Positions 17,079 to 18,131 of a DNA stretch of 64,000 bases are shown here, in pieces. The DNA is taken from the NCBI RefSeq assembly GCF_017348835.2, contig NZ_CP071375.1. The stretch is one strand, 5' to 3'. A program made the position numbers and the translations under genes. The first letter of the stretch is position 1. Each line of letters starts with the position of its first letter. The notes below the pieces were generated by a model. That model searched no databases. It was not told the DNA's origin and saw only the letters and a program-made list of their open reading frames with translations. Source of the stretch: Escherichia coli (lineage in GTDB: Bacteria > Pseudomonadota > Gammaproteobacteria > Enterobacterales > Enterobacteriaceae).

Positions 17079-18131
17079 TCAAATTCTCGCCAAAACACTT
17101 TTTAATGCCTTTGCGAATTCATCCAGACTTATATTGTCAATTTTTTTCCCAACGACGACTGACTCCGAAACATCGGCCATTGCGGGCCATCTCGTTTTGT
17201 AATCAGCATAAATTGCAACAACGGGAGTATTATAGGCACTTGCCATATGTAATATTGAGGTGTCAGGAGTTATTGCGATATAAGCATCTTTTATGATTGC
17301 TGCTGAACGTTTAATCGAGGGTGATAAGGATAAACGGTAGACATTATTATAACAATCCACTAATACCCTGGCTTTATCTTCCCCTTTTGGTCCATGAACG
17401 ATCACTATTGGTATATCTGTTTCACTTTGAATTTTTTCTATTAGATTTTCTGCAATCGATAGTGAAAATGTACGTTCCTGCGAGCTACCTTCTAAATTAA
17501 GCGCAATGTAAGATCCTAACGATCGCATTTCCTCGCGCACCTCATCGAGTACATCCTCACTTAGTGGCAATTCATATATTGGCCTGACTGCTAGAAAACC
17601 CGCCTCACGCATCATAAATGCCCATGTCATGGGTACAGGAGCCCGGAGATTCTGATCCATCCGGGACGCGTTCTTACACAAAGGGGAATAGCACTTCATG
17701 GTTAAACCAACAACCTGAAAATTCGTTTTTGCTTTCAACTGACTGATAAATAACATCGTTTTCAGGTTCTTTTTACGCATCGCCTCAATACAAAGATCCG
17801 GCGTACCGTATTGCTGTGTTATGTTCTTTGCTAAATCTTTTATTTCTTTTAATGTTGCGTGATCCTGCATAGTCATTGTGACTAATGTTAATTTAGTCTG
17901 TTCAAGTTTAAGCGCATTAAAGACTTCTAAATTAATTGTCGACGTTACAATTAAAAGATGCTTAATTTTATGCAATTCAAGCGCCCGAATAACAGGAAAG
18001 ATGGCCATAGCATCGCCAATCTGATCGGGAATATGGATGACAACAAAGTCTGTTTTTTCAATATTGAAATTATAAGCTTTATAATCGTAGTAACTAAATG
18101 CAATACGTCTCAACAATGATGCTAAAAACAT
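17079..18131 (-). CDS. yeeL: Putative glycosyltransferase, family 9 (heptosyltransferase-like)
   Basis: 350-aa uninterrupted ORF in the yeeL position between yeeJ and shiA. Confidence 0.65.
   Translation of the reverse strand: MFLASLLRRIAFSYYDYKAYNFNIEKTDFVVIHIPDQIGDAMAIFPVIRALELHKIKHLLIVTSTINLEVFNALKLEQTKLTLVTMTMQDHATLKEIKDLAKNITQQYGTPDLCIEAMRKKNLKTMLFISQLKAKTNFQVVGLTMKCYSPLCKNASRMDQNLRAPVPMTWAFMMREAGFLAVRPIYELPLSEDVLDEVREEMRSLGSYIALNLEGSSQERTFSLSIAENLIEKIQSETDIPIVIVHGPKGEDKARVLVDCYNNVYRLSLSPSIKRSAAIIKDAYIAITPDTSILHMASAYNTPVVAIYADYKTRWPAMADVSESVVVGKKIDNISLDEFAKALKSVLARI

What the first reader, a model, noticed from the sequence alone, without database searches (positions are those of the whole stretch)
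17079..18131. yeeL is an uninterrupted 350-aa glycosyltransferase-family ORF
The ORF in the yeeL position is continuous and has GT9-like character. My recollection is that yeeL is annotated as a split pseudogene in K-12, so this strain may retain the ancestral functional gene next to the decaying yeeJ adhesin gene.
Basis: partly seen in the sequence, partly recalled or inferred. Interest (0 to 1): 0.25.

Follow-up and report, generated by a model that had tools for sequence, protein, structure and literature searches.

The report
Intact yeeL glycosyltransferase gene, ordinary
This E. coli strain carries an unbroken copy of yeeL, an uncharacterised family-9 glycosyltransferase gene that lab strain K-12 has lost to a single stop codon, but the unbroken form is the normal state in most E. 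coli and is already annotated, so the finding is correct but ordinary.

Summary
Window 17079-18131 (minus strand) is one uninterrupted 350-aa ORF. It passes the Pfam GT9 threshold, and its predicted structure is a GT-B fold closest to solved GT9 enzymes. K-12 MG1655 yeeL (b4497) has the same length (1053 bp), and its only lesion is C703T (Gln235 CAA to TAA). Outgroup genera are intact, so the open frame is ancestral.

It is not rare. The locus occurs in 5342 of 5426 complete E. coli genomes. The K-12-type stop is exact in 765 (14%), including wild isolates. In a stratified sample, 12 of 14 copies were intact. RefSeq already annotates this protein (WP_053884204.1) as "glycosyltransferase family 9 protein".

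The link to yeeJ is incidental. Orthologues in Pseudocitrobacter, a divergent Escherichia lineage, Erwinia and Rosenbergiella have no adjacent adhesin gene and no conserved partner gene.

The family is under purifying selection (dN/dS about 0.1) and keeps the GT9 catalytic Asp and nucleotide-sugar motif. More distant relatives sit in Wzy_C/Bac_transf glycan clusters. The likeliest role is therefore an accessory cytoplasmic glycosyltransferase acting on an LPS-type or lipid-linked glycan (inferred, untested).

Caveat: this strain's allele carries a near-private P180L change at a nearly invariant proline.

The parts
17079..18131 (-). yeeL coding sequence, 350 aa plus stop. It is an intact orphan GT9-family (GT-B fold) glycosyltransferase with 38% GC.
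   Evidence: ORF; Pfam; identical to annotated WP_053884204.1; AF2 model pLDDT 85 / pTM 0.82; GT9 structures are the top hits; GC content.
18132..18445 (.). 314-bp divergent intergenic region between yeeL and shiA. It contains the yeeL ribosome-binding site (GAGG at 18138-18141, GGGAGG at 18143-18148, minus strand). The promoter was not identified.
   Evidence: Sequence read. The consensus promoter scan found nothing above chance.
18012..18014 (-). Codon for Asp40 (in HIPDQIGDAM), aligned with the catalytic-base Asp13 of WaaC. It is invariant across the whole YeeL-like clade.
   Evidence: hhalign, probability 96.2%, E=2.3e-9. Invariant. The role of WaaC D13 is taken from established knowledge (memory) and was not tested here.
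17472..17474 (-). Codon for Arg220 (in LNLEGSxxxRTF), the probable counterpart of the phosphate-binding Lys192 of WaaC. This position is R or K throughout the clade.
   Evidence: The exact register in the hhalign output is ambiguous by 1-3 residues, so this assignment is an inference.
17247..17264 (-). Codons 290-295 (D-T-S-I-L-H), the GT9 nucleotide-sugar motif aligned with WaaC D261...H266. D290, T291 and H295 are invariant.
17427..17429 (-). Codon 235, CAA (Gln) in the window. This is the site of the K-12 nonsense mutation (TAA).
17592..17594 (-). Codon 180, CTA (Leu) in the window where almost all relatives have Pro. This is a near-private missense change of unknown effect.
   Evidence: The 81-mer carrying it is exact in only 2 of 5426 genomes.

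Best explanation
The ORF is the intact, ancestral allele of yeeL. It is a stand-alone, soluble (cytoplasmic or peripherally membrane-associated) GT-B glycosyltransferase of CAZy family GT9. It belongs to a small, distinct 'YeeL-like' subclade and not to the canonical LPS heptosyltransferases. Shown here: the frame is open; the family is under purifying selection; the fold is GT9; and the residues aligned with the WaaC catalytic base (D13, here D40) and nucleotide-sugar motif (D261/H266, here D290/H295; K192 probably corresponds to R220) are invariant. Also shown: K-12 and about 14% of complete E. coli genomes carry one shared nonsense mutation (Q235*), and the gene predates the yeeJ island and is independent of it. 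Inferred: like other GT9 enzymes, it uses Asp40 as a general base to transfer a sugar with inversion from a nucleotide sugar (most likely ADP-L-glycero-D-manno-heptose) bound in the C-terminal domain to an acceptor bound by the N-terminal domain. The acceptor is most likely an LPS-core-type or lipid-linked envelope glycan at the inner face of the cytoplasmic membrane, which would make YeeL a dispensable accessory modification enzyme. K-12 would be a natural null mutant, which may explain why no function has been assigned.
Against: There is no direct evidence of expression or activity. The promoter scan was uninformative. E. coli yeeL lies outside any glycan cluster and has no conserved neighbour, so the acceptor is extrapolated from relatives that are only 24-38% identical. 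NCBIfam heptosyltransferase I/II/III models score far below their cut-offs (38 against 185 bits, and similar), so neither donor nor acceptor can be transferred by orthology. The gene is repeatedly lost: through the stop allele, IS1/IS3 insertions and truncations in 5 of 40 spread hits, and Shigella sonnei partial copies. It is therefore dispensable. The window allele carries P180L at a nearly invariant proline. The loop at 142-163, which holds the invariant C147, C152 and SRMDQ residues, is modelled at pLDDT below 50.
Confidence: 0.7

Rival explanations
1. YeeL is a protein O-heptosyltransferase of the Aah/TibC type (BAHT) that glycosylates the neighbouring inverse autotransporter YeeJ or another surface adhesin.
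Confidence: 0.06
2. The ORF is open but not functional in this strain, either because P180L cripples it or because yeeL is a silent, dispensable relic that is decaying across the species.
For: P180 is nearly invariant, and the L180 allele occurs in only 2 of 5426 genomes. The gene is frequently inactivated by a nonsense mutation, IS insertion or truncation. It has low GC (38%), typical of H-NS-silenced DNA (the silencing itself is inference). No promoter was found.
Against: dN/dS of about 0.1 between lineages, and about 95 invariant columns across genera, argue for long-term function. Intact alleles carry few private nonsynonymous changes (3 and 2), against 9 in the K-12 pseudogene lineage. 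All catalytic-motif residues are retained in the window allele. A good Shine-Dalgarno sequence is present.
Confidence: 0.15
3. YeeL is a GT9-fold protein with a non-catalytic (structural or regulatory) role, as seen for the plant NDH subunit PnsB1.
Against: The catalytic Asp, the R/K and the D-T-x-x-x-H motif are invariant down to 21% identity. That would be unexpected without catalysis. Relatives are embedded in glycan-biosynthesis clusters.
Confidence: 0.04

Closest known systems
E. coli K-12 yeeL (b4497), annotated pseudogene
   Same: It occupies the same locus between yeeJ and shiA, has the same 1053-bp length, and is 96% identical at the amino-acid level.
   Different: K-12 has TAA at codon 235 (C703T) and further private missense changes: A117G, L143I, K146N, R157S, N161K, L211F, V256A and S270P. 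The window has CAA at codon 235, plus its own changes P180L, A232E and Q329K.
LPS core heptosyltransferases WaaC (HepI) and WaaF (HepII), GT9; PDB 2GT1/2H1H/6DFE and 1PSW
   Different: Identity is only 12-15%, and YeeL scores far below the equivalog cut-offs. YeeL has a roughly 28-residue N-terminal extension with an invariant D16-Y17 motif. It lies outside the waa cluster and is dispensable. Its acceptor is unknown.
Veillonella parvula GT9 protein, PDB 3TOV (structural-genomics entry)
   Different: Identity is 15%. I know of no published function for it, so it adds nothing about specificity.
Autotransporter heptosyltransferases Aah/TibC (BAHT family), PDB 4RAP
   Same: They share the GT9-type GT-B core. 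In E. coli, YeeL is encoded next to an adhesin gene.

Membership tests
CAZy GT9 / Pfam PF01075 Glyco_transf_9 | Profile score above the curated gathering threshold | tested here: met
   29.1 bits against a cut-off of 22, E=7.9e-7, covering residues 230-320 only. The distant clade members score 28-52 bits.
CAZy GT9 / Pfam PF01075 Glyco_transf_9 | GT-B fold of two Rossmann-like domains, closest to solved GT9 members | tested here: met
CAZy GT9 / Pfam PF01075 Glyco_transf_9 | Catalytic-base Asp in the Gly-Asp element after strand beta-1 (WaaC G12-D13) | tested here: met
   YeeL G39-D40 aligns with WaaC G12-D13 and is invariant. The catalytic role in WaaC is from the literature (memory).
CAZy GT9 / Pfam PF01075 Glyco_transf_9 | C-terminal D-[TS]-x-x-x-H-x-x-A-A...P nucleotide-sugar motif (WaaC D261/H266) | tested here: met
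   YeeL residues 289-303 (PDTSILHMASAYNTP) align with the WaaC motif VDTGLSHLTAALDRP. D290, T291, H295, S298, A299 and P303 are invariant.
CAZy GT9 / Pfam PF01075 Glyco_transf_9 | Glycosyl (heptosyl) transfer from ADP-heptose | not testable with these tools
   This needs an enzyme assay.
LPS heptosyltransferase I/II/III equivalogs (WaaC/WaaF/WaaQ) | Score above the NCBIfam equivalog cut-off | tested here: not met
   TIGR02193 scores 38.3 against 185.3; TIGR02195 20 against 134.6; TIGR02201 17.3 against 170.2; the RfaQ/RfaC/RfaF PRK models score 12-16 against 437-569.
LPS heptosyltransferase I/II/III equivalogs (WaaC/WaaF/WaaQ) | Encoded in the waa (rfa) core-biosynthesis cluster | tested here: not met
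   yeeL lies between yeeJ and shiA. The K-12 waa cluster is at 3.79-3.81 Mb and has its own four GT9 genes.
Autotransporter heptosyltransferases (BAHT: Aah/TibC) | Conserved genetic linkage to the substrate adhesin gene | tested here: not met
   There is no adhesin next to the orthologues in four other lineages. The yeeL locus is present in 98% of genomes against 35-40% for intact yeeJ.
Autotransporter heptosyltransferases (BAHT: Aah/TibC) | Closest structural similarity to TibC | tested here: not met
Autotransporter heptosyltransferases (BAHT: Aah/TibC) | Iron-binding Cys cluster and dodecameric assembly | not tested
   YeeL has three orthogroup-invariant Cys residues (C114, C147, C152). Their geometry could not be examined because C147 and C152 lie in the low-confidence loop.
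yeeL orthologous group (K-12 b4497) | Same chromosomal position and high identity to K-12 yeeL | tested here: met
   The order yeeJ-yeeL-shiA-amn is the same. The 1053-bp alignment is gapless and the proteins are 96% identical.

The most novel reading that the evidence does not exclude
The YeeL-like proteins form a distinct, uncharacterised GT9 subclade. It is marked by an N-terminal extension with an invariant Asp-Tyr motif and, in Enterobacterales, by a Cys triad and a basic MRKKN patch in the acceptor domain. Its E. coli member would add a so far undescribed, non-essential sugar to the LPS core or another envelope glycan in most wild strains. Because K-12 is a natural Q235* null, this modification would have been missed in the model organism.
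Probability: 0.35. Interest if true: 0.4.

Novelty: already known. Interest (0 to 1): 0.12.

Why it matters
As stated, the finding matters little. Reference annotation already records the intact GT9 gene in thousands of E. coli genomes and the pseudogene in K-12. There are two modest practical points. First, metabolic engineers treat yeeL as a neutral 'pseudogene' integration site; that holds for K-12 but not for the majority of E. coli, where the gene is intact and under selection. Second, K-12 is a natural null for a conserved orphan glycosyltransferase, so any envelope modification it makes would be absent from the K-12 LPS structure used as the reference. Repairing one base (TAA235 to CAA) would give a clean isogenic test.

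Tried and rejected
(1) Linked acceptor gene, yeeJ: rejected, because the adjacency is confined to E. coli.
(2) Conserved GT9-MFS transporter pairing: yeeL is next to shiA in E. coli and Pseudocitrobacter, and next to an MFS gene in Erwinia and Rosenbergiella. This was rejected because the three transporters are unrelated (ShiA, YdeE-like, NepI-like).
(3) Single-sequence and family-profile searches of PDB sequences were almost empty (best E=1.6 and 0.086). Fold comparison and hhalign were needed instead.
(4) The consensus promoter and terminator scan of 16400-18500 found no yeeL promoter above chance. The only convincing terminator belongs to the yeeJ remnant (16519-16544, plus strand).
(5) A literature search for 'yeeL' alone returned mostly author names. 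Combined searches found only uses of yeeL as an integration site. The two YeeJ papers mention neither yeeL nor glycosylation.
(6) The contigs carrying distant relatives P0110, P0119 and P0143 were too short to be informative.
(7) The 'DH5alpha' record NZ_CP026085 was first taken as a K-12 comparator, but it carries an intact, non-K-12 haplotype. MG1655 NC_000913.3 was used instead.
(8) The allele-specific 81-mer counts are lower bounds. Genomes with other SNPs inside the 81-mer fall into the 95-99% band, so exact species-wide frequencies of intact alleles were not obtained. The stratified sample was used as a cross-check.

Full report
OBSERVATION. The window contains an ATG-initiated ORF of 350 codons at 17079..18131 on the minus strand. 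A GAGG Shine-Dalgarno lies 6 nt upstream of the start codon (sequence). The surrounding 1.85 kb is 100% identical to E. coli PE164, a pig isolate. There the ORF is annotated as WP_053884204.1, 'glycosyltransferase family 9 protein', and it sits between an 'Ig-like domain-containing protein' pseudogene (the yeeJ remnant) and shiA. The 'decaying yeeJ' remark is also correct. In window coordinates the remnant spans 13070-16498, an IS3 element (11815-13028) has removed its N-terminus, and it carries an internal stop at 16052-16054.

K-12 COMPARISON. In MG1655 (NC_000913.3), yeeL (b4497) is annotated as a pseudogene of exactly the same length, 1053 bp. Translating it gives a single in-frame stop at codon 235, leaving ORFs of 234 and 108 aa. 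From memory, this matches the old split annotation b1979/b1980. A gapless DNA alignment shows the cause is a C-to-T change at nucleotide 703 (CAA Gln to TAA); there is no indel and no insertion element.

HOW COMMON IS EACH STATE. The locus is found in 5342 of 5426 complete E. coli genomes. An 81-mer centred on the K-12 stop, in which a single mismatch drops identity below 99%, matches exactly in 765 genomes (14%). These include isolates from humans, goose, chicken, egret, giant panda, pig, river water and bovine mastitis. In the goose isolate L73, PGAP flags the gene 'internal stop' next to an intact yeeJ. In a stratified sample of 14 genomes taken down the hit ranking, 12 had an open frame and 2 had the same codon-235 stop (verified on sequence). 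In the 40-row spread listing, about 5 rows showed IS1 or IS3 insertion, truncation or absence of the gene. The intact frame is therefore the majority state, roughly three quarters or more of genomes. The K-12 lesion is an old lineage polymorphism and not a laboratory artefact. One intact genome (L020) carries the K-12-like haplotype (G117) with Gln235, so it predates the stop. R157S appears only in MG1655 within the sample. Private changes are 7 synonymous to 9 nonsynonymous in the K-12 lineage, against 5:3 and 5:2 in two intact alleles, which fits relaxed constraint after inactivation.

IS IT ANCESTRAL AND UNDER SELECTION. Full-length orthologues exist in a divergent Escherichia lineage (72% identity), E. 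albertii (66%), Pseudocitrobacter (66%), Erwinia (60-63%) and Rosenbergiella (53-57%). All of those examined are intact. Twenty-five orthologues share about 95 invariant columns. dN/dS is 0.10 against both Pseudocitrobacter and the 72% variant. The open frame is therefore ancestral, and the family has been maintained by purifying selection. One caveat applies to this strain. Its allele has Leu at position 180, where Pro is nearly invariant, and the 81-mer carrying this change is exact in only 2 of 5426 genomes, both from pigs.

SURROUNDINGS AND THE ACCEPTOR QUESTION. In Pseudocitrobacter the gene order is amn-shiA / yeeL / mtfA with no adhesin. The 72% Escherichia variant likewise has yeeL next to mtfA, shiA and amn, without yeeJ. 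In Erwinia and Rosenbergiella the gene follows an MFS transporter gene. However, the three MFS proteins are unrelated to one another: ShiA, YdeE-like and NepI-like. YeeL therefore has no conserved partner. yeeJ lies in an insertion next to tRNA-asnT, is intact in only 35-40% of genomes, and was shown to be functional in MG1655, which is yeeL-null (PMC5595812 and PMC6714894). Many genomes, including ATCC 25922, combine an intact yeeL with a wrecked yeeJ. The adhesin-glycosylation idea is therefore poorly supported. The more distant clade members point in another direction. P0109, P0112 and P0117 are embedded in clusters with Wzy_C (O-antigen ligase/polymerase family), Bac_transf, WecG, GT2, GT4 and, in one case, a canonical GT9. 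P0149 is a single polypeptide joining a Wzy_C domain to a YeeL-like GT9 domain, and it sits next to a GT4/polysaccharide-deacetylase gene.

KNOWN OR NOVEL. Both the intact gene and the K-12 pseudogene are already in the reference annotation. The literature held here treats yeeL only as a pseudogene integration site, and no function has been published in the searched corpus. The finding as written is correct but already known and of low interest. What remains is a mildly interesting open question: what does this conserved orphan GT9 enzyme do in wild E. coli, given that the model strain lacks it?

Noticed in passing
window 5270-11725: A low-GC (33-40%) block lies upstream of the yeeJ remnant. 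It encodes a PemK/MazF toxin and a MazE-like antitoxin (5270-5860), an HTH protein, an LA2681-family HEPN protein (7244-8848) and a 954-aa hypothetical protein (8861-11725). It looks like a defence or toxin-antitoxin island inserted at the asnT/yeeJ hotspot.
   Followed up: partly
window 11815-13028 and 24295-25508: There are two IS3-family copies. One truncates yeeJ at its 5' end and the other splits yeeO (pseudogene pieces at 23008-24261 and downstream). Recombination between the two copies could rearrange the yeeL-shiA-amn-yeeN segment that lies between them.
   Followed up: no
window 16600-16924: The 3' end of yeeJ and the yeeJ-yeeL intergenic region form a rare variant here. Most E. coli genomes only align from about position 325-338 of the query onward, and the spacer is 580 bp against 261 bp in K-12.
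   Followed up: no
window 22832-22907, 25969-26044, 28376-28451: Three tRNA-Asn(GTT) genes lie downstream of yeeL. The asnT copy that precedes yeeJ in K-12 is not found in window 1-17000, so the island to the left of yeeJ extends to or beyond the window start.
   Followed up: partly
L003 (NZ_CP026085.1, labelled 'DH5alpha'): This 4.83-Mb record carries an intact yeeL with a non-K-12 haplotype (Gln235, A117, R157). It is therefore probably not a genuine K-12 derivative, or it is mislabelled.
   Followed up: partly
protein P0074: An nr entry named 'glutathione transporter [Rattus norvegicus]' is 76% identical to YeeL over 88% of its length. It is almost certainly bacterial contamination or a misannotation in a eukaryotic submission.
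   Followed up: no
YeeL residues 142-163 (window about 17643-17708): The only low-confidence part of the model (pLDDT below 50) contains some of the most conserved residues of the orthogroup (C147, C152, S156, D159, Q160). Together with C114 they might form a metal site or an acceptor-binding lid. This is unexplained.
   Followed up: no
L012, L013, L030, L033 (distant relatives): YeeL-like GT9 genes recur next to Wzy_C-family genes. In two loci (L012, L030) the same GT2-Wzy_C pair lies immediately downstream on the opposite strand, and in one case the GT9 domain is fused to Wzy_C. This suggests a functional coupling between this GT9 subclade and ligase/polymerase-type enzymes.
   Followed up: partly
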